This document shows, one piece after another, positions 9,804-61,945 of a stretch of DNA of 64,000 bases. The DNA comes from an uncultured Spirochaetales bacterium (GTDB taxonomy: Bacteria > Spirochaetota > Spirochaetia > JABMQR01). The stretch is from positions 6,307-70,306 of the forward strand of contig CAZMOX010000002.1 of the NCBI GenBank assembly GCA_964567895.1, read 5' to 3'. Below the pieces are notes generated by a model. It searched no databases and was not told the origin of the DNA. It worked only from the letters and a program-made list of their open reading frames with translations. The position numbers were made by a program, and so were the translations under genes. How positions within the stretch are numbered: position 1 is the stretch's first letter; each line of letters begins with the position of its first letter.

Positions 9804-10013
9804 AAATAAATTCTATTGAGATATAGTTTAACGTTTTCTATTTGCAGAATTATATATAAGTAAAGCAAAAACTTCAAATCTACGATTGCATTGATCAAGC
9901 TATCATGCTCATAAATAATTGTCAAATACAATTGACGACTGGTAGTAGTACGTGGTATTTTAGATATATGTCAATTTCCGACAGCTAATCTTTGTAAATA
10001 ATGGACAGGTATA

Positions 10014-10787
10014 ATGCAGTATTTTGATACTCACGCTCACATTGGTTTAATCCATGAAGATCAAATAGAACAATTACTCATAATTCAGCAGGCTAAAAGG
10101 TCTGAAGTTAAGCATATCGTAAGTATCTGCAATAGCCTCAGTGACTTTTTTCAGGTATATGACAACTTGAAAACTGCATCAAACGTCTACCACGCTGTTG
10201 GTGTATCACCTTCAGAGGTAGCTAATCCTGGAATTGATTGGGAACAAAAGGTATTAAAAGGTGCTGGCTTTGATCGTATAGTAGCGATTGGAGAGATCGG
10301 TCTTGATTATTACAGAAAATTCGGTGACAAAAAATCACAGATAGAACTTTTTATACACCAGCTTGATATGGCAAAAAAACTAAATCTACCGGTTATTATT
10401 CACAACCGTGAAGCCGGTGCTGATATTATGAATATTCTCTCTGACCGAGTATCTGATAAGGGTGGAATCCTCCATTGTTACTCAGAAGATTATAACTATG
10501 CAAAACGAGCATTGGATCTAAATCTTTATATCTCTTTTGCTGGAAATGTTACATATCGTAATGCAAAAAACCTTCATGAAACTGCAGCAATGATTCCTCT
10601 CGACCGTATTCTTATTGAAACTGAAAGCCCCTTCATGGTGCCTTCACGTTATAAGGGAAAACGGAACAAACCAGCTTACTTAAGCGAAGTTGCTATTGCA
10701 ATTGCTGAAATCCGCGGCGAACCGCTTGAAGAAGTGGCTCCTGCCTTATACGAAAACAGCTTAAGAGTTTTTGGGTTGTCTGAATAA
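10014..10787 (+). CDS. tatD: TatD-family metal-dependent hydrolase/DNase
   Basis: MQYFDTHAHIG... HxH start, EIGLDYY, and the TatD histidine/aspartate pattern. 257 aa. Confidence 0.85.
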   Translation: MQYFDTHAHIGLIHEDQIEQLLIIQQAKRSEVKHIVSICNSLSDFFQVYDNLKTASNVYHAVGVSPSEVANPGIDWEQKVLKGAGFDRIVAIGEIGLDYYRKFGDKKSQIELFIHQLDMAKKLNLPVIIHNREAGADIMNILSDRVSDKGGILHCYSEDYNYAKRALDLNLYISFAGNVTYRNAKNLHETAAMIPLDRILIETESPFMVPSRYKGKRNKPAYLSEVAIAIAEIRGEPLEEVAPALYENSLRVFGLSE

Positions 10788-19373: not shown

Positions 19374-20099
19374 TTACAAAAGCCAACTTGTCAACAACTC
19401 CGGTAAATCTGCATACCGGGAAAAAACAATATCGGCCTGAGGATATTTTTTTCTTGCATTTACCCTGTTTTTTGTGATTAGTGCTGTTTTCATGCCGGCA
19501 GCCCGGGCTCCAATAATATCTTTTGTATAACTGTTACCCACGTACATGATTTCTGCGGGTTTACAACCCAATTTTTCTGCCAGATAGAGGAATGGTTCTA
19601 TTCGGGGCTTTAAGTATCCGGTATCTTCAGAGCAGCAAAATGCATCTGAAAGATCAGACACTTGCAGAGCCTCTGGTTTTATACCAAGAGGGAAATCAGA
19701 GAGAATCCCTAATTTCAAACCCATATTTTTAAGCTCCAACCATGCTCCTCTCACATTTCTATGTGAATGCACAGATTTGAAAACTGTATCCCAACTACCG
19801 TAAATCTTTCTGCTGATCCGGCTCTTTGTTTTGCTGACCAGTTCCCCCTCGGGCAGACGACCCATTGATCTAAGAACCGCTTTAGCCTGCCTGGTTCTGA
19901 AACCTTCTTCAAACTCCTCACCGGCCGCTGCCGCATCACGGAGGATTTTCCTGGCCTGACCGTAGTGATAGAGAAGCTTTGGATTTTTCAAGAGGATTGG
20001 TATCGAGTAGATACCTATCAAAGATTCCGGATAGAGCGTTCCATCTATGTCGAATCCAACTGCCTTAATAGACACACTAACCCCTTCGTTTTCTTTCAC
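19374..20099 (-). CDS. HAD-superfamily hydrolase
   Basis: DIDGTL motif I and C-terminal GNSYTKDIIGARAAGMKTALI motif. Confidence 0.7.
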   Translation of the reverse strand: MKENEGVSVSIKAVGFDIDGTLYPESLIGIYSIPILLKNPKLLYHYGQARKILRDAAAAGEEFEEGFRTRQAKAVLRSMGRLPEGELVSKTKSRISRKIYGSWDTVFKSVHSHRNVRGAWLELKNMGLKLGILSDFPLGIKPEALQVSDLSDAFCCSEDTGYLKPRIEPFLYLAEKLGCKPAEIMYVGNSYTKDIIGARAAGMKTALITKNRVNARKKYPQADIVFSRYADLPELLTSWLL

Positions 20100-21489
20100 G
20101 CAAGTGTATCTCTAACGGAACTGAGGGAAACCCGAGTTCTTTACGAATATTATTTGTAAGATATTGGAGATAACCTTTTGGAAAGCCCTTTAAATGATTA
20201 ACAAAAAGTAAAAAGTAGACCGGTTTTGTACTTGTTTGGGTTCCATAGAGGATTTTGTAGTACATACCTGTTCCCCGGGGAATTTCATACCTTTCCAACC
20301 AGCCTTTTAGAGCCTGATTGAATTTTCCGGTTTCCACACGTTTATTCAACTGTTTCCAGACACCCCAAACGGTATCAAGGAGTTTATCCATACCCTCACC
20401 GGTTTTTGCAGACAACGGTACGATCGGAGCAAACCCAAGGATAGGAAAGAGAAACCGCGTCCGATCCGTAATGGCCTCAAGCTGGTTTGGAACATGTTTT
20501 ATCAGATCCCACTTATTAAGAACCAGAACAACACCCTTCCCTTTTTGGACAATAAGATTGGCAATTTTCTTATCCTGTTCAGAAAGTCCTTCCACCGAAT
20601 CAATCATAATAAGGACTATATCTGATTCATCTATGGTACTGATGGCACGGTTGACTGAGTAATACTCAACGTTTTCTCCGACTTTTTTCTTCTTTCTGAT
20701 TCCTGCCGTATCAAGGACAATATAATCACTTCCCTTATAGGAAAAATTACCGGTAACAACATCCCGGGTGGTTCCCGGAATTTCACTTACAATTGAGGAC
20801 TCAATCCCGGTAAGCTGATTGGTAAGTGTGGATTTACCGGTATTCGGTTTACCCATAATTGCTATTCTTATCTCAGTTTCGATCTCTTCCTCTTCCTCTT
20901 CACCTTCCGGCTTTTCATCAAATCTATCTAAATTTACCGTAAGATTCATTTTTTCAAGGAGAGTCTCTTCCAGCTCCTCAACCCCCAACCCATGGGCTGA
21001 CGAAATTCCTAATACATCCTTAATTCCATAAGAGTAGAATTCCCAAATTTGATCCTCTCTTCCGGGGTTGTCGACTTTATTTACCACTAAAATAATTTTT
21101 TTTACGTAGGGTCGAAGTGCCTCAATAAGTGTCTGATCCTCAGGTGTGACTTCAGTTATATCGAGCATGAGCAGTATAATATCCGCCTTTTTAAGGACAG
21201 CATAACTTTTTTCTGTGACCAGGTAATCCAATCCTTCCTGATCAAGCTTTAATCCGCCTGTATCCGCCAGCATTACGGGATTTCCTTCGAGATCCCACTT
21301 CTCAAATATTGGGTCACGTGTAACTCCAGGCGTTGGATCTGTGATAGCTCTTCTTTTTCTTATAAGCCGATTAAAAAGTGTGGACTTTCCTACATTCGGA
21401 CGTCCTATTATTGCAACTAATGGTACCTTGATTTTAGGTACTGAAGAAATCGAATCGTTCATTTGACCATTCCCTGACATATTCGTCAA
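20077..21489 (-). CDS. der: Ribosome-biogenesis GTPase Der (EngA). The start is likely one of the downstream Met codons.
   Basis: Two GTPase domains (GRPNVGKSTLFNRL and GKPNTGKSTLTNQL) plus a KH-like C-terminus. Confidence 0.9.
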   Translation of the reverse strand: MTNMSGNGQMNDSISSVPKIKVPLVAIIGRPNVGKSTLFNRLIRKRRAITDPTPGVTRDPIFEKWDLEGNPVMLADTGGLKLDQEGLDYLVTEKSYAVLKKADIILLMLDITEVTPEDQTLIEALRPYVKKIILVVNKVDNPGREDQIWEFYSYGIKDVLGISSAHGLGVEELEETLLEKMNLTVNLDRFDEKPEGEEEEEEIETEIRIAIMGKPNTGKSTLTNQLTGIESSIVSEIPGTTRDVVTGNFSYKGSDYIVLDTAGIRKKKKVGENVEYYSVNRAISTIDESDIVLIMIDSVEGLSEQDKKIANLIVQKGKGVVLVLNKWDLIKHVPNQLEAITDRTRFLFPILGFAPIVPLSAKTGEGMDKLLDTVWGVWKQLNKRVETGKFNQALKGWLERYEIPRGTGMYYKILYGTQTSTKPVYFLLFVNHLKGFPKGYLQYLTNNIRKELGFPSVPLEIHLRERKRRG

Positions 21490-23179
21490 TTTTTGTACAT
21501 GAATCCATTTTCATGATTGTCGCCGCTAATTCCCTAGCCTCCACAATGGTAACTGACCGGATAATTTTCTTAACTTCAAGAACAGCGGTGGGACTCATGC
21601 TGAATTCATCAAGTCCCAACCCCAGTAGAAGTACGGTAGAAATGGGATCTGAAGCCATCTCACCGCACATGGCAACCGGTATTCCAGCTTTATGCCCATT
21701 ATCAATTATCATCTTGAGAAACCGCAGCACTCCAGGATGAAAGGGTTGATAGAGGTAGGCAATTTTCTCATTACCCCTATCAACAGCAATGGTATACTGG
21801 ATTAGGTCATTTGTCCCAATTGACAGGAAATCTACTTTTCTTGCTATGATATCAGATATAAGCGCTGCAGAAGGAACTTCAATCATGGATCCTATTTGAA
21901 TATTTTCATCAAAAGGAATTTTTTCGCGTCTGCAGTCCTCTTTTACCTCTTCCAGAACCTGAAGTACGCTTTCAAGCTCTTCTCCCCCGCTTATCATAGG
22001 AAACATGATTTTCAGGCTGCCGAATACAGAGGCTCGGAGCATTGCCCTCAGCTGTATTCTGAATATATCTGTATGGGAGAGACAAAAGCGCACTGCTCTC
22101 CATCCCAAAATAGGATTTTCTTCATCAAAATCTTCCATTCCAGGGATAACCTTATCACCGCCGACATCAATTGTTCTGATTGTGACAGAACCTTTCCCTT
22201 TCATGTGTTTAAGCACATAGGCATATGCATCAAACTGCTCTTCCCCTGAAGCAACACCACCAGGCCGCAAAAAAAGAAATTCAGAACGATAAAGGCCAAT
22301 CCCGCTTGCCCCATGGGCAATTGTTGAGGCTACCTCTTCCGGTATCTCAATATTTGTTTTGAGCAAAACCCTGTGCCCATCTGTGGTCTCTGCAGGCAGT
22401 TTGTGAAGCAGCAATAAATCCTGCTCATGCTTAACCCATTTATCCTGCCGTAATTTATAGTCATCTACCGTATTCCTACCAGGTCGTAGTATTACGGTGC
22501 CCTGATTTCCATCAATAATTAAGGTATTACCATTCCTGACTTTTTTTGTCACGGTAGAGAGACCAAGAACCGCAGGAATCTCAAACGATCTTGCCAGGAT
22601 CGCTGTATGCGATGTTTTTCCTCCGGCATCAAGCACTATTCCCTTAATATATTTTTTATTCATGGTAAGCACTTCTGAAGGAAGCAGCGTCTGAGCTACT
22701 AAAATAACTTCTTCTTCAATATCTACCAGTGAAGTGCGCTCAATATACATTAAGTGATGTAAGATTCTACTCTGAATATCTATCAGGTCAACAACCCGCT
22801 CATTCAAGTATTCATCATCAGCATCTTCCAGGTTTTTTGTCATCCTGGAAATGGTATCTTCCACGATATGTTCAGCATTCTTACCCTCTTCAGCTATCCC
22901 CTGGGTTATCTGGCTTTTCAAATCCGGATCTTCGATCATCATTAAATGAGTTTCGATTATTTCAAGATCTTTTTTCCCGGCAGTCTCCCGGGTTTTTTCG
23001 ACAAGCTCTTCAAGATCAAGCTTCACCTTGTAGATTGCATTATTAAATCGTGTTATCTCACCTGCAACCTCTTCCTCATCAATAGAGTAAGACGGCACAG
23101 TAAGTGTCTGGATTGAGTAGAGAAATACTTTTCCTATTGATATCCCGGGTGAGGCGGGAATACCCTTCATTATTCGCAT
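21434..23179 (-). CDS. ptsI: Phosphoenolpyruvate-protein phosphotransferase (PTS Enzyme I)
   Basis: GGKTSHTAILARSFEIPAVLG phospho-His region, PEP-utilizing C-terminal barrel with NDLIQY. 581 aa. Confidence 0.8.
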   Translation of the reverse strand: MRIMKGIPASPGISIGKVFLYSIQTLTVPSYSIDEEEVAGEITRFNNAIYKVKLDLEELVEKTRETAGKKDLEIIETHLMMIEDPDLKSQITQGIAEEGKNAEHIVEDTISRMTKNLEDADDEYLNERVVDLIDIQSRILHHLMYIERTSLVDIEEEVILVAQTLLPSEVLTMNKKYIKGIVLDAGGKTSHTAILARSFEIPAVLGLSTVTKKVRNGNTLIIDGNQGTVILRPGRNTVDDYKLRQDKWVKHEQDLLLLHKLPAETTDGHRVLLKTNIEIPEEVASTIAHGASGIGLYRSEFLFLRPGGVASGEEQFDAYAYVLKHMKGKGSVTIRTIDVGGDKVIPGMEDFDEENPILGWRAVRFCLSHTDIFRIQLRAMLRASVFGSLKIMFPMISGGEELESVLQVLEEVKEDCRREKIPFDENIQIGSMIEVPSAALISDIIARKVDFLSIGTNDLIQYTIAVDRGNEKIAYLYQPFHPGVLRFLKMIIDNGHKAGIPVAMCGEMASDPISTVLLLGLGLDEFSMSPTAVLEVKKIIRSVTIVEARELAATIMKMDSCTKIDEYVREWSNERFDFFST

Positions 23180-23256
23180 AGTATAAACACTATAAGGAGT
23201 TTTATCTCTGATGTCAAATCTGATTTCTTACGGTTATCATAGACATCCGCGTTCAC

Positions 23257-23898
23257 TTGAGGTACTCTGTTTCTATGCAAAATCATGATTCTAAAGAAGC
23301 CAGACAGGGAATACCTCTTATAATGTGGCTTCTTCTTATAGTAGTTATAGCAGGAAGTTTTCTCTATAGTCTACCAAAAATAATACGGAATTATCGGGAA
23401 TCAGGTCTGGCAGATACGGTCTCTGCATATAGAAGCAGAGAATCTGACACTGAAGCTGTTCAAACTGAAACTGCTCAAATCTATTTTGTTCTGCAGGATG
23501 TTAACACACATGAACTTATCTGTGATGCTGTTTCTGTTACTGTATCCTCTCCGGTAAACCTGAACAGCCTTCTGGAACTCCTTATAGCTGGACCGGACTT
23601 ATCTGTACTCTCCAAAGGATTCATCTCTTTTATTCCGGAAAGCACAAAACTTCTCGGCAGCAGAATTGTTAACCATGCTGCATATATTGACCTCTCTACC
23701 GATTTTTATACTGATAGCAATTCCAATCCTCAAGCCGCAGAGCTGGCCGTACGTCAAATTATCAAGACAGCTCTTTCTTACGAATTAGTAGAGGATGTTA
23801 TTATATTGATTGATGGTGAGTCATATATTAGTTCCCGGAGCACTAGTTCAAGTTTTTCTCCATACAAAAAATCTCCAGGACGACGTTTTTCATCATGA
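23257..23898 (+). CDS. Hypothetical membrane-anchored protein (single N-terminal TM; possible GerMN-like domain). The 3' end overlaps tlyA convergently.
   Basis: TM IPLIMWLLLIVVIAGSFLY. No recognisable catalytic motif. Low-complexity S-rich tail. Confidence 0.45.
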   Translation: MRYSVSMQNHDSKEARQGIPLIMWLLLIVVIAGSFLYSLPKIIRNYRESGLADTVSAYRSRESDTEAVQTETAQIYFVLQDVNTHELICDAVSVTVSSPVNLNSLLELLIAGPDLSVLSKGFISFIPESTKLLGSRIVNHAAYIDLSTDFYTDSNSNPQAAELAVRQIIKTALSYELVEDVIILIDGESYISSRSTSSSFSPYKKSPGRRFSS

Positions 23899-24614
23899 AT
23901 AAGTGCCAGAAATTCTCTGTTTCCTTTTCTTCCCAGGATTGGTGAAGCAACTATGCGAACCACGCCCGCTCCTTCCTCAGAAAGCTCGCTGCAGGTTGCG
24001 GTAAGTATTTCAAAAAGTAGTTCATTATTTGAGACTATCCCATTAAAATCCTGAATATAGCTATCAATTTCAAACTGCGGTTTAATCAGTGCAATCATCC
24101 ATGCTTCCCGGGTTAAAGAGAGAATTTTTTCAGCTGCTCCCCGTATTGAACGAAATGATAAATCGGCAACAGCCGCATGTGGGCGCGGATCCAGTTCACC
24201 AACCTCCATAATATTGGTTCGTTCCATAACAACTACTTTCGGGTGTGTCCGCAGGCTGTAGTCCAGTTGGTTATAGCCTACATCAACTGCATAGACCCTG
24301 AGCGCCCCCTCCTGCAAAAGGCAATCGGTAAAGCCGCCGGTTGAGGAACCAGCATCAATCATGATTTTTTCAGCAGGAGAAATCCCCCACTCCAGAAGAG
24401 CATGATTTAATTTGACGCCACCTCTTGAAACATACTTATCCCGCACAATTTCCAGCACAGCCGTTATTGGCACACGTTCTTTTGGATTAGCTATCCGGCC
24501 TCCGTTTACAGAGACTTCCCTGCATAGTATATAGGAGTAGAGTCTCTCTTTTGGAATATCCGGGTATTTTTTAAACAGCAGCTCAAGGAGAGGCAGGGAC
24601 TTTCGGGCTTGCAT
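23778..24614 (-). CDS. tlyA: TlyA-family hemolysin / rRNA 2'-O-methyltransferase (S4 domain + FtsJ methylase)
   Basis: S4-like N-terminus, IDAGSSTGGFTDCLLQEGA SAM motif, FtsJ-type fold pattern. Confidence 0.8.
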   Translation of the reverse strand: MQARKSLPLLELLFKKYPDIPKERLYSYILCREVSVNGGRIANPKERVPITAVLEIVRDKYVSRGGVKLNHALLEWGISPAEKIMIDAGSSTGGFTDCLLQEGALRVYAVDVGYNQLDYSLRTHPKVVVMERTNIMEVGELDPRPHAAVADLSFRSIRGAAEKILSLTREAWMIALIKPQFEIDSYIQDFNGIVSNNELLFEILTATCSELSEEGAGVVRIVASPILGRKGNREFLALIHDEKRRPGDFLYGEKLELVLRELIYDSPSINIITSSTNS

Positions 24615-24848: not shown

Positions 24849-26261
24849 CTAGTGAGTTAATGGCTCGAAAGATTTCATTTCGGGTCCATTCACCATTTTT
24901 TCGTTTATATATACATCAGATCTGAATTGGGCTATTCTCTCCGCGGAAGACGCATTATGAGCCGCCTGCTCCAGCGTTGTATCTCCTGTTGAAATTACAC
25001 CGTACCCTGCAACAACACAGCAGCCTTTATATTTTCTTAACATATCCAGTATCGGGTTTTCCGGGCTCCGGTTATTCAGTTGATACAAGTCAACAAGACC
25101 CAGCCTTGGGTTAAGATAAATTGCTTCTGCATCAATAGGTGCTATGACCGGATGATTATCCGGTTCGTAAGGAATATCTATTTTCTCGCCTGCCAGCACC
25201 CCCTCTCCATATTTTTCTGCCAGTATTACCATACCTTCAGCTACAGCCATTGGGTTTGTAGTAATCATACAGGCATTCTGAATAGTATTCCGGTAAATAA
25301 GTTTATGCAGAAACAAATCAACCGGGTCTTCATCCCTGAACTCCAGGTCAACCCTCAGAAGAGGAAAATCCATCCCATCAGGAACGGCAGACATCGGGCA
25401 GTATATCATCTCATTTGCAGCTGTTTTCTGACTCATTGAACCAGTTCCATATGCCCCGATTTGAATTCTATAGTTATAGCTGAGTCTTTCTGAAAAATCG
25501 GAGACCATAATTTTATCTTCTACATCCCTTCTGCCCAGTATTGATTCATCAAGAAGATGCGGTGTAACAGGAAAGAAGCTCTCCCTGCCGAGCTCATGTA
25601 TCCTGCGCTGGGCAGGAACAATGGGGAATCCTCTGCGTCTTACATACAGAGCCAAAGTTGCACTGTGCTCCAGTGTACTAAGTCTATAGAGACAATCCTC
25701 AAGGGATGACCCTCTGGCAAAGGGGCCATGCCCGCGGACAATTGTCAGGTGATTCTCTTTCAGATATTCAGGAAGTCTCTCCTCCATCTCAGGAGACCCT
25801 ACCGGTTGTTCATAACTTCCTACCTGCACAGAGCCTACAACATGGCTTCCAAAGAGATCTATCGGTGAAAACCGGAATTCCTCCCTGCCTTTCTTATCCA
25901 ATCCCAAATATTCCAGAAAAATTTCTTTATCTTTCTGATCAAAAGAAATTATAGTAGTGTTCATAAAATGCCCGTGGATAACGGCACGTATTCCTTCAAT
26001 CTTCAATAGTTTCCTATGAATAGTGGATTCTGTAGACCCCCTGGCATCTCCCCAGCCAACATCAGAAAATCGGATCGGCACGATATCCCGCGATACCAGA
26101 CTACCAATCTGAGAACCACTGGATGTTATATAAAAATAATCATTATCATCAGAGTCACGTTGGGAAATGTTCCCGCTATGCGTGTTATTTGCATTAACTA
26201 CTCCCAGGGCATTACCCAACCGTTTGAAGTCTGCATAGATTTTCTCCTGTTTGCTGTTCAT
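24849..26261 (-). CDS. Tandem class II aldolase/adducin-domain protein. The first domain is intact; the second domain lacks the HxH metal ligands.
   Basis: Domain 1: NTHSGNIS, E...AVIHGHF, IVRGHGPFARGSSLEDCLYRLSTLE. Domain 2: GSMSQK, ...NACMITTNPMAVA (no His pair), VVAGYGVISTGDTTLEQAAHN. Confidence 0.7.
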   Translation of the reverse strand: MNSKQEKIYADFKRLGNALGVVNANNTHSGNISQRDSDDNDYFYITSSGSQIGSLVSRDIVPIRFSDVGWGDARGSTESTIHRKLLKIEGIRAVIHGHFMNTTIISFDQKDKEIFLEYLGLDKKGREEFRFSPIDLFGSHVVGSVQVGSYEQPVGSPEMEERLPEYLKENHLTIVRGHGPFARGSSLEDCLYRLSTLEHSATLALYVRRRGFPIVPAQRRIHELGRESFFPVTPHLLDESILGRRDVEDKIMVSDFSERLSYNYRIQIGAYGTGSMSQKTAANEMIYCPMSAVPDGMDFPLLRVDLEFRDEDPVDLFLHKLIYRNTIQNACMITTNPMAVAEGMVILAEKYGEGVLAGEKIDIPYEPDNHPVIAPIDAEAIYLNPRLGLVDLYQLNNRSPENPILDMLRKYKGCCVVAGYGVISTGDTTLEQAAHNASSAERIAQFRSDVYINEKMVNGPEMKSFEPLTH

Positions 26262-28288
26262 GTTGTTACCTGCTCTTTCTGTACAAATTCTTCCATACCC
26301 AACCTTCTCAAGGTCTCATTCTCTGGTATGCCATTATCATTCCATCCCATAGCTCTATAGTATTCTTTATGCATTCTGCTAAACACTTCACGGTTACACA
26401 AAACATCTTCTCCCTCAACTTGGGTGGGAATTTTAAAGAATCTATCCGGAAGCCAGTCATCTTTATCAGTTTTCCCGCATCGGATATTAAACAGTCTCTC
26501 AAGAGATACCGTTCTCTGTGCAAACTGTAACAGTGAACCGGAACTTAAATTATCACCTGTTACAGCATTAATTATAGGAGCATATTCATCAAGGGAGATA
26601 GCAAATGAGCTGTACACACATACCCCTATGATATCAATAGCTGTACCTTTTAAAGTGGCATTTTTGGAGATCAGGGGTGTGCCTTCAATACGGTTTCCCG
26701 GCCACTCAGCATATCCTGCACAGTAGCTCAATGCAGCAGTATACCCTCCTTCCAGATGACAGCCACCCCGATTACTCATCTCATAACAGAGAGCCTGGCT
26801 GAAAGAAGTACGGGGGTCATAAGCCGGAAGTTCCTGCTTTTTAACAGTCATAGATAATTCCGAATGTCCATATCTCGTGCAAAAGCGATAGGATCCCATA
26901 GCCAGATACTTTCCAATACCTTCTCCATTTCCAATCAGCTTAACCAAATCAATAAGATACTCTTTATTTCCAAAACGGGGTTCTCCATAATTTTCAACAA
27001 AACTTCCAAGATCGCGTAGGAAAAGCTTTTCACCCTCTTCCAGATTCTCTTTACTGTCTGTGATAGAAGTATACATTTCCACAAATGATGCAATTGTTGA
27101 ACCTAGAGAAATGGTATCCATCCCATATCTGTTTGCAAGATAGTTCACTCTTGCTATGAGGGGAAGATCGTAAATTGACAGATTTGCACCCAAAAGAGCA
27201 ACTGTCTCAAATTCGGGTCCTTCACCCTTATCAATCACAACTCCACTACTATTCTTTACGGTAGTTACTCGTTTACAAGTAATCGGACAGTTATAACAGG
27301 TATCTTTTTTGACCTCTATGGTATCGGAATCCGAACTGGCTATTTGCGCGTAACTTCTTAATGCTTCCCCATCAATACGTTTGATGTCGGAAAGGTCGTG
27401 TTTTGTATCAATCATATTATTGTGGATAAGCTGATCAAAATTATTAACCATCCCTGCAAGACTCAGTGATCCCATCGAGGCCAAAGAACCATAGTGCTGC
27501 TCTTTTCTGGTAATTTTCCCTACATCCAGTTTAACCTTCGCCTTGTAGACCGAGCCGCTCTTATTTTTAATATCCAGCTCTTTTTCATTATTCACGTTGA
27601 TTTTACTATTTTTATCCGGTAAAACGGCAACTGCAATCAAATTCTTTGATCCGAAGACAGCTCCTGCCCCCCCTCTTCCAAAGGTACGGCCTTTATCACT
27701 CATTACATTTGCAAAAAGCGAGAGCTTTTTTCCTGCTTCACCGATACTCAGTACCTGCATTTTATCAGGCAGTTTTTCTTTAAAGTGCCTCTGAATCTCT
27801 TCAGAATTCATCTGCTCAAACTCAGCAGCATCTACTATTTCAGTAGAATTGTTTTTAATAATAAGGTAGACAGGTTTCTCCGACCTTCCTTCAATAATCA
27901 GCATATCATATCCGGTCCGTTTAAAATTAACCCCCCAATAACCACCGGAGTTAGCACTTCCATACCCTCCCGTTAGTGGAGATTTGAAATTCATATGAAC
28001 GCGGCCGGATGTGGGCATTCTCGTCGCTGTTGATGGGGCGGTAGAAATGATAACTACATTATCAGGGGAAAGCGAATCAACTTCTTTAAAAGAGTTTTCA
28101 TACCTGCCTGATGTATCAAGTTTCAGGAAATGCCGATACAAATAGGCAACCCCAAGTCCTCTGTTTCCATGAAAAAGATGTGCTATTTCCAGATCAAGTT
28201 TTTCTTCCCGTACTTCTTTGCTCCCAAGGTTTATAATCAGGATTTTTCCCATATATCCCCCGGGTAATTTCTTACTGTCATTCTCCAT
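26258..28288 (-). CDS. aor: Aldehyde:ferredoxin oxidoreductase family (tungstopterin enzyme)
   Basis: AOR N-terminal domain (GKILIINLGSKEVREEKLD). Fe-S ligand motif DTCYNCPITC (CxxCxxxC). 676 aa. Confidence 0.75.
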   Translation of the reverse strand: MENDSKKLPGGYMGKILIINLGSKEVREEKLDLEIAHLFHGNRGLGVAYLYRHFLKLDTSGRYENSFKEVDSLSPDNVVIISTAPSTATRMPTSGRVHMNFKSPLTGGYGSANSGGYWGVNFKRTGYDMLIIEGRSEKPVYLIIKNNSTEIVDAAEFEQMNSEEIQRHFKEKLPDKMQVLSIGEAGKKLSLFANVMSDKGRTFGRGGAGAVFGSKNLIAVAVLPDKNSKINVNNEKELDIKNKSGSVYKAKVKLDVGKITRKEQHYGSLASMGSLSLAGMVNNFDQLIHNNMIDTKHDLSDIKRIDGEALRSYAQIASSDSDTIEVKKDTCYNCPITCKRVTTVKNSSGVVIDKGEGPEFETVALLGANLSIYDLPLIARVNYLANRYGMDTISLGSTIASFVEMYTSITDSKENLEEGEKLFLRDLGSFVENYGEPRFGNKEYLIDLVKLIGNGEGIGKYLAMGSYRFCTRYGHSELSMTVKKQELPAYDPRTSFSQALCYEMSNRGGCHLEGGYTAALSYCAGYAEWPGNRIEGTPLISKNATLKGTAIDIIGVCVYSSFAISLDEYAPIINAVTGDNLSSGSLLQFAQRTVSLERLFNIRCGKTDKDDWLPDRFFKIPTQVEGEDVLCNREVFSRMHKEYYRAMGWNDNGIPENETLRRLGMEEFVQKEQVTT

Positions 28289-28332
28289 CTATCTATCCTT
28301 CTATTTTAATTTCCAGTTTGGTTCTCTTTTTT

Positions 28333-29730
28333 CTATAAAAGCTCTAACACCCTCTTCTGCATCTTCGGTACTGCAGAGATTTGCAAAAGATTTAGATCAG
28401 GCTGATTCCTTCTCAACTGAATACCTATATTACCCAGAGAAGTAGCTTCTTCGGGACCGGCAATTATATCCTTTCCGGTTAAGTTGGAGGTAATCTGATT
28501 CAGATTGCTATTTTTACAGCCACCGCCAACGATATGGATAACCTTGTGTTCTGTATCAGTAAGTTTCTCAATCTTTTCAATACTGTCCCGGTAGCTGCAG
28601 GCAAGAGATAGGTATACCGCTGCCAAAACCTCCTCAATAGTAAGGTTCCTGTTTGTATTGGCAGAAATAGCATCCGGCATATTTACCGGGTTAAAGAAAC
28701 TACTATCATTGGGATCGAATATCGGAATCTCACTTCTACAGCTGTTAGCCATACTGACTAACTCATCCCAGGAATATTTGTGCCCGCCTTTCTCCATCTC
28801 CTTTTTTATGTTTTGGAGAATATGCATGCCGGCAGAATTCTTCAAAAATGTTATTGTGCCTAAGGCTCCACCCTCATTTGCAAAGCCTTCTGTATATACA
28901 TCGGAATTGATAACTGGTTCTTCCAGCTCCGTCCCAATCAAAGACCAAGTACCCGAAGAGATAAAAAGGAATTTCTCTCTCTCTGCAGGAACTGAAACAA
29001 CCGCAGATGCCGTATCGTGAGAGGGAACACTGACAAATGGGCACACATTTATTTTTAGAAAATCTGCAATATCCAGTTTCAGATCTCCGTAAACATCTCC
29101 ATGCTTCGTGAGAGGAGGAAGGAGAGAATCGTTTAGATTGAAATGATTAATCACTTCAGAAGAGTAGGTCCAGTCTCTCATATTCAAAATCTGGGTAGTA
29201 CTTGCAATTGTTGGTTCTCCACAGATCCTGCCGGTAAAAAGCCAGGCTAACAGGTCGGGAATCAGGAGTAATTGCTTTGCTTCTTTATAATACTCCGGTA
29301 GATACTCCTTTATTCCAATAAGCTGATAGAGCGAATTCATTGAATGCTCAAGTATACCCGTTGCATTAAATAATTTTTCCTTTTCCTTTTGCGAAAGAGT
29401 ATTGAGAATGATCTCTCCAAAAGTGTTCCGATAGCACAGGGGGTTGCCTAAAAGCTGCTGAGATTCACCTAGGAGTCCGAAATCTATCCCCCAGGTTGAT
29501 ATTCCCACCGATTCCACCGGGCCAAATTCAAGATAGCATTTTTGAAGACCTCTTTGTAATTCACGGAAAATATACAAAATATCCCAGTAAAATATGCCAT
29601 TAACCTTCACCGCCTCATTTGGAACCTGGTGTACAAGCTCTGCTTTTATCCTCTCTCCATCAAAAAGTCCGGATAAAACCCGGATTGAAGAGTTCCCGCA
29701 ATCAAAGGCCACATAATTCTTTATTCCCAT
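28333..29730 (-). CDS. FGGY-family carbohydrate kinase, rhamnulokinase/fuculokinase-like
   Basis: N-terminus NYVAFDCGNSSIRVLSG resembles RhaB (VAVDLGASSGRVML). Two actin-like ATPase halves. 465 aa. Confidence 0.75.
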   Translation of the reverse strand: MGIKNYVAFDCGNSSIRVLSGLFDGERIKAELVHQVPNEAVKVNGIFYWDILYIFRELQRGLQKCYLEFGPVESVGISTWGIDFGLLGESQQLLGNPLCYRNTFGEIILNTLSQKEKEKLFNATGILEHSMNSLYQLIGIKEYLPEYYKEAKQLLLIPDLLAWLFTGRICGEPTIASTTQILNMRDWTYSSEVINHFNLNDSLLPPLTKHGDVYGDLKLDIADFLKINVCPFVSVPSHDTASAVVSVPAEREKFLFISSGTWSLIGTELEEPVINSDVYTEGFANEGGALGTITFLKNSAGMHILQNIKKEMEKGGHKYSWDELVSMANSCRSEIPIFDPNDSSFFNPVNMPDAISANTNRNLTIEEVLAAVYLSLACSYRDSIEKIEKLTDTEHKVIHIVGGGCKNSNLNQITSNLTGKDIIAGPEEATSLGNIGIQLRRNQPDLNLLQISAVPKMQKRVLELL

Positions 29731-30389
29731 TACTTTCCCTGCCCGTAACGATTACGGGCAAAATCCTGCATAGCTGCAATATCATCGGGATTAATAAGCC
29801 GTGGAGTCCTTCCCATTGATTGTGCAAGTATGTAAATGTGAGCAGTTTTCTCTACAACATGAATTGTCTTAAGCGTAGTTTCAAAATCTGCACCTACACA
29901 GATACTCCCATGATTGGGTATAATAACTGCATTTCTGTGCCCCAACCCTTTTACGACATTTACAGCCAGCTCCGGAGTGCCGGGAAGAGCATACTCACAA
30001 TTTATTATTTTATCCCCCACCAACTGAACAAAATCCTCGCCAATTCCCGGAATATCTTCATCGATAACTCCAAAAACACTTGAGTAGACGGGATGATAGT
30101 GCATTACACAATTAACATCTTTTCGGGCATTCATTATAGCAATATGAAAGTTGTATTCTATTGAAGGTTTTCGATGTCCATCGACAACTTCTCTTTCAGC
30201 ACTCATTACAACGACATCATCTTCCCGGATTTCAGGATAACGCATTCCACTTGGCTTGATATAAAACAGATTTGTTTCGGGATCTCTGATGCTCAGATTT
30301 CCCCAGGTTCCCACTGTTAATCCTTGTTTATATAATTTTAGCCCACCATCAACAATGGCTTGTTTTAGCTTTTTCTTTACTAATGACAA
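29730..30389 (-). CDS. Class II aldolase (L-fuculose-1-phosphate aldolase-like)
   Basis: GNLSIRDPE, E...HIAIMNARKDVNCVMHYHP (HxH), IIPNHGSICVGADFETTLKT. 219 aa. Confidence 0.8.
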   Translation of the reverse strand: MSLVKKKLKQAIVDGGLKLYKQGLTVGTWGNLSIRDPETNLFYIKPSGMRYPEIREDDVVVMSAEREVVDGHRKPSIEYNFHIAIMNARKDVNCVMHYHPVYSSVFGVIDEDIPGIGEDFVQLVGDKIINCEYALPGTPELAVNVVKGLGHRNAVIIPNHGSICVGADFETTLKTIHVVEKTAHIYILAQSMGRTPRLINPDDIAAMQDFARNRYGQGK

Positions 30390-30411: not shown

Positions 30412-30475
30412 TTATTGTAACAATAAACAAACTTTCTGTTACTTTTGTATCATTTTTATGTTATCATAGTAACAT
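30412..30475. promoter_or_regulatory. Candidate operator sites in the divergent deoR/operon promoter region: a 15-bp perfect palindrome TTATTGTAACAATAA (30412-30426) and ATGTTA-N6-TAACAT (30458-30475)
   Basis: The palindromes lie immediately upstream of the AGGAGA RBS of the aldolase gene and ~60-110 bp upstream of the deoR start. Confidence 0.45.
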
Positions 30476-30538
30476 ACAAAAAATACGGCGTCAATATTTT
30501 ATTGTGTAAATTATGCAATTACCTACAGGGGATATAAG

Positions 30539-31315
30539 ATGAGCATTCGTAAAAACAGGGTTGAAACGATTCAAAAGATAGTCAGGGATTCTGCATCTAT
30601 AACTATAAAAGATCTGGCAGAAGAACTTGCTGTATCGAAGATGACTATAAGAAGGGATCTGGACCAAATTTTGAGCAACCCGAAAATTCAATTCATTAGA
30701 GGAATGCTTATATACAACCCAATACTTGATGCTTCTGACGAGTCTCATTATTCTGTTATTTCAGCATCAACACTGAATAAGGAAGCAAAAAAAAGAATAG
30801 TTTCCAAGGCACAATCGCTGCTTGAACCAAATGATATAATTCTTATAGATGCTGGATCAACCACAGAGATGCTTGCCAGAATTCTTCCGAAGGAGCTCGA
30901 GCTTGATGTGATTTGCTTTAGCCTGAATATACTAAATACTATCCTCAAGTTCGGGAACTGTAATATTACGTTGCCGGGAGGAAAACTCCACTGCAGTTCC
31001 ATGGTTTTTCAAAGCAGAGAAGGAATTGAGCTATTGAAAAAAACAAGAGTAAAAAAAGCTTTTATATCTGCTTATGGTGTAGATATCAGACTGGGAGTAA
31101 CCTGTTCTGCGGACTTTGAAAGTGAGCTGAAAATGACAGCTATCAACACGGCGGAACAACGGATTCTTCTAGTGGATTCTTCAAAGTTTGGGAAAGTAAC
31201 CAATTTTCATTTTGCTGATCTGGAAAATTTTGATACCATTATCACGGACAAATTACTGTCCAAAGAACTAGCAAAAGAGATACGAAGCAGAGGTATAACG
31301 CTGTTTATGATGTGA
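30539..31315 (+). CDS. DeoR-family transcriptional regulator
   Basis: N-terminal HTH (ITIKDLAEELAVSKMTIRRDLDQI) and C-terminal DeoR sugar-phosphate-binding domain. 258 aa. Divergent from the catabolic operon. Confidence 0.85.
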   Translation: MSIRKNRVETIQKIVRDSASITIKDLAEELAVSKMTIRRDLDQILSNPKIQFIRGMLIYNPILDASDESHYSVISASTLNKEAKKRIVSKAQSLLEPNDIILIDAGSTTEMLARILPKELELDVICFSLNILNTILKFGNCNITLPGGKLHCSSMVFQSREGIELLKKTRVKKAFISAYGVDIRLGVTCSADFESELKMTAINTAEQRILLVDSSKFGKVTNFHFADLENFDTIITDKLLSKELAKEIRSRGITLFMM

Positions 31316-31320
31316 GCTGA

Positions 31321-32118
31321 CTATACTCCCATTTCTTTTGAAAATCTTACAATTTTCTTTGCCAGTCCTTTATCCGAATTTATAGTAACTACAACCCCTT
31401 TTAAGGCTGCTGGTGTATCAGCAATTTGATTCTTTAACGGGATTTGGGTCATTTGACGCTTGATTGAAATTTCCGGCTCACTGCCAATTACACTCATCAC
31501 CGGTCCGGTCATCCCGATGTCTGTGATATAAGCAGTACCTTTGGGAAAAATACGCTCATCAGCCGTTTGAATATGTGTATGGGTACCCACGACTGCTGCT
31601 ACCGTACCATCAAGGTAAAGAGCCAGTGCTTCCTTCTCTTCAGTAGATTCAGCATGAAAATCAATAAGTATACAGGTATTCGGCCGTTTCACCTGCTGTA
31701 CAAGTTCTTTACCTATCCGAAAAGGACAGTCAATGGTACTCATATGCATCCGCCCCTGAAGGTTGATAACGACTACCTCAATTCCCTTAACCGTTATCGC
31801 AGCTACGCCTTTTCCGGGGACACCCGGGGGATAGTTAGCAGGCCTGATTATCTTCCGTGTGCCGTTCAGCATTGGATAAATCTCATTCTTCTGCCAAATA
31901 TGGTTTCCCGAGGTGATAATATCCACACCCGCTGCAAATATAGCATCGGCAATTTCAGGAGTTATGCCAAATCCATCAGAAGCATTTTCTCCATTTGCAA
32001 TTACCACATCGGCACGATAATCTTTAATTAACTGTTTTAATCCCATAAAAATAGCCCTGTTCCCAGGTTGACCACAAATATCACCTAAAAATAGGGCTTG
32101 TATATCTTTTCCTGACAT
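31321..32118 (-). CDS. ymdB: YmdB-like metallophosphoesterase (2',3'-cyclic nucleotide phosphodiesterase family, TIGR00282-like)
   Basis: LFLGDICGQPG, GNHIWQK, and the calcineurin-like pattern. Conserved position immediately downstream of rny, as in Bacillus. Confidence 0.8.
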   Translation of the reverse strand: MSGKDIQALFLGDICGQPGNRAIFMGLKQLIKDYRADVVIANGENASDGFGITPEIADAIFAAGVDIITSGNHIWQKNEIYPMLNGTRKIIRPANYPPGVPGKGVAAITVKGIEVVVINLQGRMHMSTIDCPFRIGKELVQQVKRPNTCILIDFHAESTEEKEALALYLDGTVAAVVGTHTHIQTADERIFPKGTAYITDIGMTGPVMSVIGSEPEISIKRQMTQIPLKNQIADTPAALKGVVVTINSDKGLAKKIVRFSKEMGV

Positions 32119-32140
32119 AATTCCATCTTTTACCTGCTGA

Positions 32141-32204
32141 TTTCACAGCTTACTTGCTGATTTCACAGCTTACCTGCTGATTTCACAGCTTACTTGCTGA
32201 TTTA
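32141..32204. repeat. 20-bp tandem repeat TAC[C/T]TGCTGATTTCACAGCT x3 plus a degenerate 4th copy. It fills the rny-ymdB spacer and overlaps the rny stop.
   Basis: Direct reading: tacctgctgatttcacagct / tacttgctgatttcacagct / tacctgctgatttcacagct / tacttgctgatttatcagcg. Confidence 0.9.
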
Positions 32205-61862: not shown

Positions 61863-61936
61863 AAAAATATATCAGGCCAGGTAGGACTCGAACCTACAAC
61901 ATCCGGTTTTGGAGACCGGCGCTCTAGCCATTGGAG
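61863..61936 (-). tRNA. trnW: tRNA-Trp (anticodon CCA)
   Basis: Manual fold: acceptor AGGCCAG/CTGGCCT, D arm GCTC-CAATGGCTA-GAGC, anticodon arm CCGGT-CUCCAAA-ACCGG, T arm GTAGG-TTCGAGT-CCTAC. 74 nt. Confidence 0.9.
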
Positions 61937-61945
61937 CTACTGGCC

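What the first reader, a model, noticed from the sequence alone, without database searches (positions are those of the whole stretch)
24849..26261. Tandem double class-II-aldolase protein whose second domain has lost the metal-binding histidines
Residues ~1-200 carry a full class II aldolase/adducin motif set: GN-S-R phosphate loop (THSGNIS), catalytic Glu, HGH metal site, C-terminal RGHGPF...LE helix. Residues ~230-470 repeat the fold (GSMSQK, VVAGYGVISTGDTTLEQAAHN) but replace the HxH metal ligands with NACMITTNPMAVA.

This would be an intramolecular active plus degenerate pseudo-dimer. In this family, single-domain members act as aldolases, epimerases, dehydratases or decarboxylases, so the fusion could be the missing isomerase/epimerase or a regulatory subunit of the operon.
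Basis: seen in the sequence. Interest (0 to 1): 0.6.

Follow-up and report, generated by a model that had tools for sequence, protein, structure and literature searches.

The report
Half-dead double aldolase paired with tungsten oxidoreductase
This gene encodes a class II aldolase made of one intact and one metal-less copy of the same fold, and across at least ten bacterial phyla it sits directly after a tungsten-type aldehyde:ferredoxin oxidoreductase gene, often in fucose/rhamnose operons, which points to an undescribed anaerobic route from deoxy-sugars to lactate.

Summary
The ORF (minus strand, 26261→24849, 470 aa) has two class II aldolase folds.

- **N half:** keeps the complete catalytic set (N31, S76, E78, H96, H98, H178). 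It is invariant even in distant relatives.
- **C half:** has the same fold (Foldseek vs FucA E 2.6e-9; N-vs-C profile alignment 95% probability). Its three metal histidines are replaced by I333, T335 and Y420.
- **Conservation:** the C half is slightly more conserved than the N half, so it is not decaying.

In 65 of 73 evaluable genomes an aldehyde:ferredoxin oxidoreductase (AOR) gene lies directly upstream on the same strand (median gap 4 bp). The link is reciprocal (3/3), and the two proteins diverge in step (r = 0.94).

About half of the longer loci add L-rhamnose or L-fucose isomerase, a rhamnulokinase-like kinase, LutABC, fucosidase, rhamnosidase or lactate racemase. In those operons the double aldolase is the only aldolase.

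Best reading: it cleaves rhamnulose- or fuculose-1-phosphate to DHAP plus L-lactaldehyde, and AOR oxidises the lactaldehyde to lactate. This would be a ferredoxin-linked analogue of RhaEW. No indexed paper describes it. A physical complex and the substrate remain untested.

The parts
24849..26261 (-). Double class II aldolase gene (DAL), 470 aa, last gene of the operon
   Evidence: ORF. 461 full-length homologues. AF2 pLDDT 91.2, pTM 0.92.
25626..26261 (-). N-terminal aldolase-II domain (aa 1-212) with the complete catalytic set: G30-N31, T46/G49, S76, E78, H96, H98, H178
   Evidence: Pfam 81 bits. PDB FucA 2fk5 E 1.5e-11. These residues are invariant in the family and in distant tandem relatives.
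25518..25625 (-). Inter-domain linker (aa 213-248), poorly conserved
   Evidence: 36.6% mean pairwise identity, against 65-69% in the domains. Two short helices in the model.
24852..25517 (-). C-terminal aldolase-II fold (aa 249-470) without metal ligands (I333, T335, Y420 replace the three His; D315 replaces the catalytic Glu)
   Evidence: Foldseek of the C-half model: all top 50 hits are class II aldolase folds. hhalign N vs C 94.9%. Pfam 22.9 bits. 59 invariant positions.
25116..25139 (-). PIDAEAIY block (aa 375-382), the signature of the C domain. E379 sits at the position of E. coli FucA Tyr113 (Pro+4) in the loop that reaches the neighbouring subunit's active site
   Evidence: P375, I376, D377, E379 and Y382 are invariant in the AOR-linked family. 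In distant tandem relatives the block is largely but not strictly kept (Y382 varies). Aligned to N-domain P133-I-D-L-F137 and to the T. thermophilus FucA PLDLE motif. The trans-acting role is inferred.
26258..28288 (-). Aldehyde:ferredoxin oxidoreductase (AOR/WOR family, 676 aa). Its stop codon overlaps the DAL start by 4 nt
   Evidence: Pfam AFOR_N 205 bits and AFOR_C 325 bits. PDB 9g7j E 6e-103 and 1aor E 2e-96, with CYNCPITC, GPEFET, NRGGCH and GVCVYS motifs aligned. Upstream of DAL in 65/73 loci.
28333..29730 (-). FGGY sugar kinase, rhamnulokinase-like
   Evidence: TIGR02627 rhamnulokinase 346.6 bits, below the 528 cut-off but the best hit. Pfam FGGY_N/FGGY_C.
29730..30389 (-). Single-domain class II aldolase (ALD1, 219 aa), first gene of the operon, with an intact GN / E / HxH / H set
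   Evidence: Pfam 161 bits. Best NCBIfam hit is FucA PRK06833 at 158.6 bits, below the 264 cut-off. Sequence. Found only in spirochaete-type loci (window, L032, L081).
30539..31315 (+). Divergent DeoR-family regulator
   Evidence: HTH_DeoR + DeoRC. The same arrangement occurs in L032 and L081.
30414..30494 (-). Promoter-like sites in the DeoR/ALD1 intergenic region. Consensus matches only
   Evidence: Two sites with 9/12 matches and TG extension.

Best explanation
The protein is a single-chain pseudo-dimer of the class II (metal-dependent, DHAP-forming) aldolase fold.

- The N domain carries the only working active site: three His plus Glu for the metal, and a phosphate-binding loop.
- The C domain has lost the metal site but is under strong constraint. 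It most likely plays the part that the neighbouring subunit plays in the canonical homotetramer. That means completing and shaping the aldehyde side of the N-domain pocket with its invariant PIDAEAIY loop, and possibly docking a partner.
- Its conserved partner is the AOR encoded immediately upstream and translationally coupled to it.

Proposed pathway:
1. L-rhamnose or L-fucose is isomerised (RhaA or FucI).
2. The ketose is phosphorylated by an FGGY kinase.
3. This aldolase cleaves it to DHAP plus L-lactaldehyde.
4. AOR oxidises L-lactaldehyde to L-lactate and reduces ferredoxin.
5. Where present, LutABC (with or without LarA) takes lactate to pyruvate.

This is a ferredoxin-linked anaerobic counterpart of the RhaEW aldolase/lactaldehyde-dehydrogenase fusion.

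Shown here: the architecture, loss of the metal site, conservation, the AOR linkage and the operon contexts.

Inferred: aldolase activity, the substrates, lactaldehyde as the AOR substrate, the trans-acting role of the C domain, and any physical complex.
For: Architecture.

The catalytic N-domain residues are invariant in 36 family members and in 10 distant tandem relatives. The C domain is at least as conserved as the N domain (68.9% vs 65.1%; 59 vs 50 invariant positions), while the linker is at 36.6%.

AOR linkage:
- AOR lies directly upstream on the same strand in 65 of 73 evaluable genome loci from at least 10 phyla.
- The median gap from AOR stop to DAL start is 4 bp; 31/46 are 20 bp or less, and 11 have the 4-nt overlap.
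- Three AOR homologues, chosen without reference to DAL, all have a 469-473-aa Aldolase_II gene downstream.
- Pairwise identities of the two proteins correlate at r = 0.94 (Mantel 0/2000), with equal mean divergence.

Pathway context:
- L-rhamnose isomerase 648 bits (cut-off 572), L-fucose isomerase 1097 bits (cut-off 775), LutB 452 bits (cut-off 445), rhamnulokinase-like kinases.
- Alpha-L-fucosidase, GH106 alpha-L-rhamnosidase, GH28 rhamnogalacturonase and LarA.
- In L031/34/35, L045/47, L020/28/29/30, L039 and L053 no other Aldolase_II was found among the genes identified (a few ORFs in L020 and L038 were not scanned), which leaves DAL as the aldolase.

Precedents:
- RhaEW couples a class II aldolase to lactaldehyde oxidation, with lldEFG in the same regulon (PMC3870299).
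- A tungsten oxidoreductase, E. limosum WOR1, oxidises lactaldehyde in vitro (PMC11725836).
Against: - No biochemical data exist for any member.
- Only about half (16/33) of the AOR-linked loci of 15 kb or more carry any deoxyhexose or lactate marker within 8 kb. The 44-47% identity clade has none.
- The window itself has no isomerase anywhere in 64 kb. It also has a second, intact single-domain aldolase in the same operon, so DAL is not needed there to fill an aldolase gap.
- DAL scores far below the curated cut-offs of FucA, RhaD and MtnB equivalogs.
- Spirochaete-type loci add a glycyl-radical enzyme and its activase, so AOR there might oxidise propionaldehyde instead.
- AOR segments in excess of P. 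furiosus AOR are not specially conserved, which gives no support for a docking surface.
- The geometry of the N/C interface could not be inspected.
Confidence: 0.55

Rival explanations
1. It is the same aldolase-plus-AOR module but acts on other substrates. DAL would cleave another ketose-1-phosphate, such as 5-deoxyribulose-1-P or methylthioribulose-1-P of the DHAP shunt, or a tetrulose or pentulose phosphate. AOR would then oxidise the resulting small aldehyde (acetaldehyde, methylthioacetaldehyde, glycolaldehyde or formaldehyde). In spirochaete-type loci AOR might mainly oxidise propionaldehyde made by a glycyl-radical diol dehydratase.
For: About half of the loci are isolated AOR-DAL pairs with no sugar genes. 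The N domain's best curated hits, after the generic PRK08660 aldolase, are MtnB models at 48-54 bits. L003 has a PNP_UDP_1 nucleosidase/phosphorylase and a CofH_C-type radical SAM enzyme nearby. A GRE and its activase flank the pair in L019, L032 and L081. AORs are typically broad-spectrum (PMC11725836).
Against: No DHAP-shunt kinase or isomerase genes recur near the pair. The recurrent neighbours are specifically RhaA, FucI, rhamnulokinase-like kinases, LutABC, LarA, fucosidase and rhamnosidase. The MtnB scores are far below cut-off.
Confidence: 0.2
2. DAL uses the class II aldolase platform for a non-aldolase reaction on a phosphorylated sugar (epimerase like AraD, dehydratase like MtnB, decarboxylase like OtnC). 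The operon aldolase is ALD1 or is encoded elsewhere.
For: The fold supports all these chemistries, and the NCBIfam hits are spread over all of them below cut-off. The window and L032/L081 carry a separate intact aldolase, ALD1. The window lacks an isomerase.
Against: In the rha/fuc operons of Planctomycetota, Acidobacteriota and Desulfobacterales there is no other aldolase, and isomerase, kinase and lactate genes are all present. The tight link to an aldehyde-oxidising enzyme is best explained by an aldehyde-releasing reaction.
Confidence: 0.12
3. DAL is a non-catalytic structural, regulatory or maturation subunit of this AOR clade, built from a recycled aldolase fold (as adducin recycles it).
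For: Near-obligate adjacency, translational coupling and co-divergence with AOR. One half is clearly non-catalytic. Adducin head domains show that the fold can serve as a pure scaffold (PDB 8iah/8iai among the fold hits).
Against: All metal, phosphate and acid/base residues of the N domain are invariant across more than 100 sequences down to about 40% identity. That is hard to explain without catalysis.
Confidence: 0.06

Closest known systems
RhaEW (B. subtilis YuxG, C. aurantiacus Caur_2283): bifunctional L-rhamnulose-1-phosphate aldolase / L-lactaldehyde dehydrogenase (PMC3870299)
   Same: A class II aldolase is coupled one-to-one to the enzyme that oxidises its L-lactaldehyde product to L-lactate. 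It occurs in rha loci, and lactate-oxidation genes (lldEFG = lutABC) belong to the same regulon. It is a non-orthologous replacement of RhaD.
   Different: RhaEW is a covalent fusion of ONE aldolase-II domain to an NAD-dependent short-chain dehydrogenase. Here there are two separate genes, the aldolase is a tandem of an active and a metal-less domain, and the oxidising partner is a tungstopterin/4Fe-4S AOR that reduces ferredoxin. No sequence match to a RhaEW model appeared in the NCBIfam scan.
L-fuculose-1-phosphate aldolase FucA (E. coli 1FUA; T. thermophilus 2FK5) and the PRK08660 'aldolase' group
   Same: The N domain shares the fold, the three His, the Glu, the GN phosphate loop and the PxDxE-type trans loop region. 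It is the best structural and sequence match.
   Different: FucA is a roughly 200-215-aa homotetramer with four equal sites. DAL is 470 aa with one live and one dead domain. Its scores are far below the curated cut-offs (PRK08660 123.5 vs 203; FucA models 18-31 bits vs 250-264). The N domain lacks the Tyr113/Glu at Pro+4, and the C domain supplies it.
Aldehyde:ferredoxin oxidoreductases (WOR family; P. furiosus AOR 1AOR, 9G7J; 'Class I' WorL-only enzymes in PMC13328260)
   Same: The partner protein has AFOR_N and AFOR_C, the CxxCxxxC...C cluster motif and the pterin-region motifs. No polyferredoxin or FAD subunit gene lies next to it in the window.
   Different: It is about 70 residues longer, and it has a conserved aldolase gene as its fixed neighbour. 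The 2026 classification of 92 clades does not mention any aldolase, lactaldehyde, fucose or rhamnose.
DmpFG / BphIJ aldolase-dehydrogenase complexes (from general knowledge, not tested here)
   Same: The concept is the same: an aldolase hands a reactive aldehyde to a dedicated dehydrogenase encoded next to it.
   Different: The folds are unrelated (pyruvate class II TIM-barrel aldolase plus acylating NAD dehydrogenase). A complex and a channel are proven there and only hypothesised here.
Adducin head domains (PF00596, non-catalytic)
   Same: A class II aldolase fold that has lost its metal ligands yet is retained for a structural role, in hetero-oligomers.
   Different: Adducin is eukaryotic and cytoskeletal, with no active partner domain in the same chain.

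Membership tests
Class II aldolase/adducin superfamily (Pfam PF00596) | Alpha/beta fold of FucA/AraD/RhaD | tested here: met
   N half: Pfam 81 bits, Foldseek 2fk5 E 4e-12, TMt 0.84. C half: Pfam 22.9 bits vs 22.2, Foldseek 2flf/2fk5 E 2.6e-9, TMt 0.71-0.73, hhalign to the N half 94.9%.
Class II aldolase/adducin superfamily, catalytic members | Three His metal ligands plus an acidic fourth ligand/base (FucA H92, H94, H155, E73) | tested here: met
   N domain: H96, H98, H178 and E78 are invariant and align to 2fk5. The C domain does NOT meet this feature: I333, T335, Y420 and D315.
Class II aldolase/adducin superfamily, catalytic members | Phosphate-binding residues (FucA N29, T43/G44, S71/S72) | tested here: met
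   N domain: G30-N31, T46...G49 and S76 are conserved. The C domain keeps only G274-S275 and S291.
Class II aldolase/adducin superfamily | Homotetramer with active sites at subunit interfaces | not testable with these tools
   pTM 0.92 indicates a fixed N/C arrangement.
L-fuculose-phosphate aldolase FucA (NCBIfam equivalogs TIGR01086, NF005302, NF040649) | Score at or above the curated cut-off | tested here: not met
   NF005302 20.2 bits vs 264; NF040649 30.8 vs 250; NF005984 18.4 vs 264.
Rhamnulose-1-phosphate aldolase RhaD (NF002963, TIGR02624) | Score at or above the curated cut-off | tested here: not met
   19.3 bits vs 170; 13.4 vs 401. It may work like RhaD, but it is not a member.
Methylthioribulose-1-phosphate dehydratase MtnB (TIGR03328, NF006672) | Score at or above the curated cut-off | tested here: not met
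   48.1 bits vs 137; 53.6 vs 226.
RhaEW bifunctional aldolase/dehydrogenase | Aldolase_II domain fused to a short-chain dehydrogenase domain | tested here: not met
   No adh_short/SDR domain in DAL. The partner is a separate AOR gene. Definition from PMC3870299.
RhaEW-like functional module (aldolase + lactaldehyde oxidation in rha/fuc loci) | Co-localisation with rhamnose/fucose isomerase and kinase genes and with lactate oxidation genes | tested here: inconclusive
   Met in 16/33 loci of 15 kb or more (12/33 by strict markers). Not met in the window beyond the kinase.
AOR/WOR family (partner protein) | AFOR_N + AFOR_C domains and the 4Fe-4S Cys motif | tested here: met
   205 and 325 bits. 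CYNCPITC and GVCVYS align to the 1aor cluster cysteines. Tungsten versus molybdenum content is not testable.

The most novel reading that the evidence does not exclude
The tandem aldolase and its AOR form an obligate hetero-complex in which the metal-less C domain is the adaptor. It completes the N-domain active site in trans and docks onto AOR, so that L-lactaldehyde (or another reactive aldehyde) is handed directly to the tungsten site. This would define a new, widespread, ferredoxin-reducing oxidative branch of fucose/rhamnose fermentation in anaerobes, an alternative to the 1,2-propanediol/microcompartment route. It would also give a physiological role to a previously unassigned WOR clade.
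Probability: 0.3. Interest if true: 0.8.

Novelty: new variant of a known kind. Interest (0 to 1): 0.6.

Why it matters
L-fucose and L-rhamnose are major sugars of algal, plant and mucin glycans. Textbook anaerobic catabolism reduces the lactaldehyde by-product to 1,2-propanediol, often inside microcompartments. A dedicated aldolase-AOR pair would instead oxidise lactaldehyde and capture the electrons on low-potential ferredoxin. That changes the predicted products (lactate, pyruvate and acetate rather than propanediol and propionate), the energy yield and the tungsten dependence. The organisms affected include Planctomycetota, Acidobacteriota, Desulfobacterales, Spirochaetia, KSB1 and Ignavibacteriota in sediments and digesters.

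For tungsten enzymology, only 5 of 92 WOR clades have a defined physiological role (PMC13328260), and this analysis yields a directly testable one. For protein evolution, it is a clean case of an ancient internal duplication in which one copy gave up catalysis yet became the more conserved half.

Databases currently label these proteins 'L-fuculose-phosphate aldolase' or 'class II aldolase/adducin family protein'. That hides both the architecture and the AOR partnership.

Tried and rejected
1. The first N-vs-C profile comparison, using 36 close homologues, was negative (0.3%). It became positive only after distant relatives were added.
4. A Cys-based replacement metal or Fe-S site in the C domain (C288, C331, C414, C415) was considered. 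C331 and C414/C415 lie in predicted beta-strands, and none of the four is conserved in distant tandem relatives. Core packing is more likely, though a metal site is not excluded.
5. I looked for an NAD-dependent aldehyde dehydrogenase replacing AOR in the 8 AOR-less loci. None was found. Their neighbours are housekeeping genes or an alpha/beta-hydrolase plus a transaldolase-like gene.
6. I looked for common neighbours of the isolated AOR-DAL pairs. They are heterogeneous.
7. AOR segments in excess of P. furiosus AOR were tested as candidate docking surfaces. They are not more conserved than the rest of the protein (0.48-0.66 vs 0.68).
8. There is no Moco/Tuco riboswitch or other Rfam element near the operon.
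9. There is no RhaA, FucI, LutABC, GRE or activase anywhere in the 64-kb window.
10. Literature searches: AOR + class II aldolase gave 0 papers. Lactaldehyde + AOR gave 0. AOR + fucose/rhamnose gave nothing relevant. Tandem or pseudo-dimer class II aldolase gave nothing.
11. A linker-fused AOR-DAL complex prediction was considered.
Full report
**1. The observation**

The ORF is real, but it lies on the minus strand (26261→24849, ATG start, 470 aa). Pfam Aldolase_II matches residues 25-204 at 81 bits. When the C-terminal 245 residues are scanned alone, they match profile positions 69-180 at 22.9 bits, just above the gathering score of 22.2. That borderline hit needed independent support.

AlphaFold2 with a 36-sequence alignment gave pLDDT 91.2 and pTM 0.92 for the whole chain, and pLDDT 88.2 for the C half alone. 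The order of secondary-structure elements in the two halves is the same.

Foldseek of the full model against the PDB found only single-domain class II aldolases covering about 210 columns, so no tandem form has been solved. Foldseek of the C-half model returned only class II aldolase/adducin folds among its top 50 hits. The best was T. thermophilus FucA (E 2.6e-9, TM 0.71-0.73, 10-18% identity).

A profile-profile comparison of the N and C halves failed with 36 close homologues (0.3%). With 104 sequences including distant relatives it gave 94.9% probability, E 4.2e-8, over 198 columns. That alignment maps:
- N31 to S275
- E78 to D315
- H82 to H319
- H96 to I333
- H98 to T335
- H178 to Y420

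The second domain is therefore an ancient duplicate of the first that has lost all three metal histidines.

**2. This is a family, and the 'dead' half is not decaying**

A search of 5.8 billion proteins returned 461 hits. The 120 best are nearly all 454-488 aa and cover the full length at 59-96% identity. Sources name them only 'L-fuculose-phosphate aldolase' or 'class II aldolase/adducin family protein'. No curated NCBIfam equivalog is reached: the best is PRK08660 'aldolase' at 123.5 bits against a cut-off of 203, and the FucA, RhaD, MtnB, AraD and OtnC models all score far lower.

An exhaustive phmmer search of the C half against 1.84 billion cluster representatives found only 37 hits. All were the C-terminal halves of 413-477-aa proteins, or fragments. 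The 10 full-length ones scanned all have an N-terminal Aldolase_II match, and 9 of the 10 show two stretches. No stand-alone form of this domain is detectable by sequence.

Within the family:
- The N-domain catalytic set (G30-N31, T46, G49, S76, E78, H96, H98, H178) is invariant, including in the distant relatives.
- The C-domain positions equivalent to the metal ligands are degenerate everywhere. Some distant relatives keep only the first His.
- The C domain is slightly more conserved than the N domain: 68.9% vs 65.1% mean pairwise identity, and 59 vs 50 invariant positions. The linker is at 36.6%.
- The most conserved C-domain block is P375-I-D-A-E-A-I-Y382.

In the N/C alignment this block matches P133-I-D-L-F137 of the N domain. 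In the alignment to T. thermophilus FucA, the N-domain segment matches P-L-D-L-E. From my own knowledge of E. coli FucA, Tyr113 lies four residues after the equivalent Pro, in the loop that inserts into the neighbouring subunit's active site.

The N domain has a variable hydrophobic residue at that position, and the C domain has an invariant Glu379. This suggests a division of labour: the N domain supplies the metal and phosphate site, and the C domain supplies the trans-acting loop. This is inference, because I could not inspect model coordinates.

**3. The surroundings: a fixed partnership with an AOR**

In the window the gene is the last of a four-gene minus-strand operon:
- a single-domain Aldolase_II (ALD1, 30389-29730)
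- a rhamnulokinase-like FGGY kinase (29730-28333)
- an aldehyde:ferredoxin oxidoreductase (28288-26258)
- the double aldolase, whose start overlaps the AOR stop by 4 nt

A divergent DeoR regulator lies at 30539-31315. A strong promoter-like site just past the DAL stop probably serves the next gene.

The AOR has the CxxCxxxC cluster motif and the conserved GPEFET, NRGGCH and GVCVYS segments, aligned to 1AOR and 9G7J.

Look-ups of four homologues showed AOR directly upstream in three and two genes upstream (an MCP gene intervening) in L001. In two of the four it formed an isolated two-gene unit. A scan of one genome per species returned 74 loci from Spirochaetia, KSB1, Bacteroidota, Ignavibacteriota, Phycisphaerae/Pirellulales, Desulfobacterales, SAR324, Acidobacteriota, Eubacteriales, Marinimicrobia and others. 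Results from those loci:
- AOR lies directly upstream on the same strand in 65 of 73 evaluable loci. All eight exceptions have a DAL that is 55% identical or less.
- The median distance from AOR stop to DAL start is 4 bp, and 11 loci show the ATGA overlap.
- The link is reciprocal. Three AOR homologues chosen because their contigs were absent from the DAL hit list all carry a 469-473-aa Aldolase_II gene downstream.
- Pairwise identities of the two proteins across 46 loci correlate at r = 0.94 (Mantel 0/2000), with identical mean divergence of 57%. The pair is inherited, and evolves, as a unit.

**4. What pathway?**

Clustering all ORFs of the loci and profiling the recurrent clusters gave:
- rhamnulokinase-like FGGY kinases in 20 loci
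- LutB in 10 AOR-linked loci, LutA in 9 and LutC in 6
- L-rhamnose isomerase in 7 (648 bits, cut-off 572)
- L-fucose isomerase in 6 (1097 bits, cut-off 775)
- alpha-L-fucosidase, GH106 alpha-L-rhamnosidase and GH28 rhamnogalacturonase
- lactate racemase LarA immediately after DAL in L038

Example operons:
- L031/34/35: RhaB-transporter-RhaA divergent from AOR-DAL-LutABC
- L045/47: transporter-AOR-DAL-RhaA-RhaB
- L020/28/29/30: FucI-kinase-AOR-DAL
- L039/L053: fucosidase-AOR-DAL-FucI-LutABC

In these, nearly every gene could be assigned and none of the flanking ORFs scanned is another Aldolase_II; a few ORFs in L020 and L038 were not scanned. The five required functions are isomerase, kinase, aldolase, lactaldehyde oxidation and lactate oxidation. 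They map one-to-one onto RhaA/FucI, FGGY, DAL, AOR and LutABC.

This mirrors the experimentally validated RhaEW system. There a class II aldolase is fused to an NAD-dependent lactaldehyde dehydrogenase, the aldolase needs the dehydrogenase to be active, and lldEFG belongs to the same regulon (PMC3870299). A tungsten oxidoreductase oxidising lactaldehyde in vitro has been reported for a different, pentameric clade (PMC11725836).

**5. Caveats**

- Only 16 of 33 AOR-linked loci of 15 kb or more carry any of these markers within 8 kb. The rest are isolated pairs with heterogeneous neighbours.
- The window has no isomerase or Lut genes in 64 kb. It also carries an additional intact aldolase, ALD1, so the role of DAL in this particular operon is less constrained than in the planctomycete, acidobacterial and deltaproteobacterial operons.
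- Spirochaete-type loci (L019, L032, L081) add a PFL-like glycyl-radical enzyme and an activase. This type is used elsewhere for 1,2-propanediol dehydration, so AOR may see propionaldehyde there.
- AOR-less DAL relatives at 40-50% identity sit next to an alpha/beta-hydrolase, a transaldolase-like gene and an E2 acyltransferase. They probably form a different subfamily.
- No aldehyde dehydrogenase replaces AOR in the exceptions.
- AOR-specific insertions are not specially conserved.

Physical association and channelling are therefore hypotheses supported only by gene order, coupling and co-divergence.

**6. Comparison with what is known, and novelty**

The protein belongs to the class II aldolase superfamily by fold and, in its N half, by all catalytic features. 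It fails the curated thresholds of FucA, RhaD, MtnB and the other named families. It lacks the SDR domain that defines RhaEW.

It likely works like RhaD or FucA plus AldA, or like RhaEW, but with ferredoxin as the electron acceptor.

Searches of 8 million full-text papers found:
- nothing joining AOR with class II aldolase
- nothing joining AOR with lactaldehyde
- no description of a tandem class II aldolase

The June 2026 classification of the 92 WOR clades never mentions aldolase, lactaldehyde, fucose or rhamnose. It states that only five clades have a defined physiological role.

I rate this a new variant of known kinds, not a new category. The parts are familiar. The active/inactive tandem, its fixed pairing with an AOR, and the implied ferredoxin-linked lactaldehyde branch are not described.

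**7. Verdict and confidence by step**

| Claim | Confidence |
|---|---|
| Observation (two folds, second without metal ligands) | confirmed |
| Tandem of an active and an inactive domain | ~0.9 |
| Functional partnership with AOR | ~0.85 |
| Deoxyketose-1-phosphate aldolase feeding L-lactaldehyde to AOR | ~0.55 |
| Physical channelling complex with the C domain as adaptor | ~0.3 |

Interest is 0.6.

Noticed in passing
window 28304-28396 (minus strand): A 31-codon remnant (77% identical, E 6e-12) of the C-terminus of an enoyl-CoA hydratase gene. In the closest relative, L009, that gene sits intact between the FGGY kinase and AOR. Here only the tail survives, overlapping the 3' end of the kinase ORF in another frame, which looks like a deletion scar (ECH identity).
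   Followed up: partly
L019, L032, L081 (for example L081:744-3155 and 9434-10339): Spirochaete-type loci flank the AOR-DAL pair with a PFL-like glycyl-radical enzyme (about 803 aa) and a radical-SAM activase with a ferredoxin insert, placed directly after DAL. They also carry DeoR, LacI and a sugar ABC transporter. This suggests a linked diol-dehydratase route and propionaldehyde as a possible second AOR substrate.
   Followed up: partly
L056, L074, L075, L079 (DAL at about 8001-9380 in L056 and L079): Distant tandem-aldolase relatives (40-50% identity) lack AOR. They are instead followed by an alpha/beta-hydrolase, with a transaldolase/FSA-like gene (L056, L075) and a 2-oxoacid dehydrogenase E2 (L056, L075, L079) nearby. 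They are probably a separate functional subfamily of the same architecture.
   Followed up: partly
L008:1283-3313 and L009:3682-5473: In the two closest genome relatives the AOR reading frame is split into two ORFs (413+255 aa; 117+481 aa). These are either assembly frameshifts in the MAGs or pseudogenisation of the partner while DAL stays intact.
   Followed up: no
L011, L031, L034, L035, L040, L045, L047, L049, L052, L071 (for example L045:4269-5693): A hydrophobic, apparently membrane protein of 467-533 aa with no Pfam or NCBIfam match recurs next to the AOR-DAL pair in 10 loci, often with RhaA. It is a candidate deoxyhexose transporter of an undescribed family.
   Followed up: partly
L038:9432-10703; L005:16331-17644: A lactate racemase (LarA) gene lies directly downstream of DAL in L038, and a Lar_N gene lies near the pair in L005. 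This is consistent with lactate being the product of the module.
   Followed up: no
L059:4561-5916: In a planctomycete locus of the 45% identity clade, a PGI/SIS-family sugar-phosphate isomerase gene ends 4 bp before the AOR start. This hints that this clade may handle a different sugar phosphate.
   Followed up: no
window 20077-24614 and 31321-33737: The four-gene operon plus DeoR is an island among housekeeping genes: Der/EngA GTPase, PTS enzyme I, a TlyA/FtsJ-like methyltransferase and a YmdB-like phosphoesterase. Two tRNA genes lie at 61873-61946 and 62188-62260.
   Followed up: no
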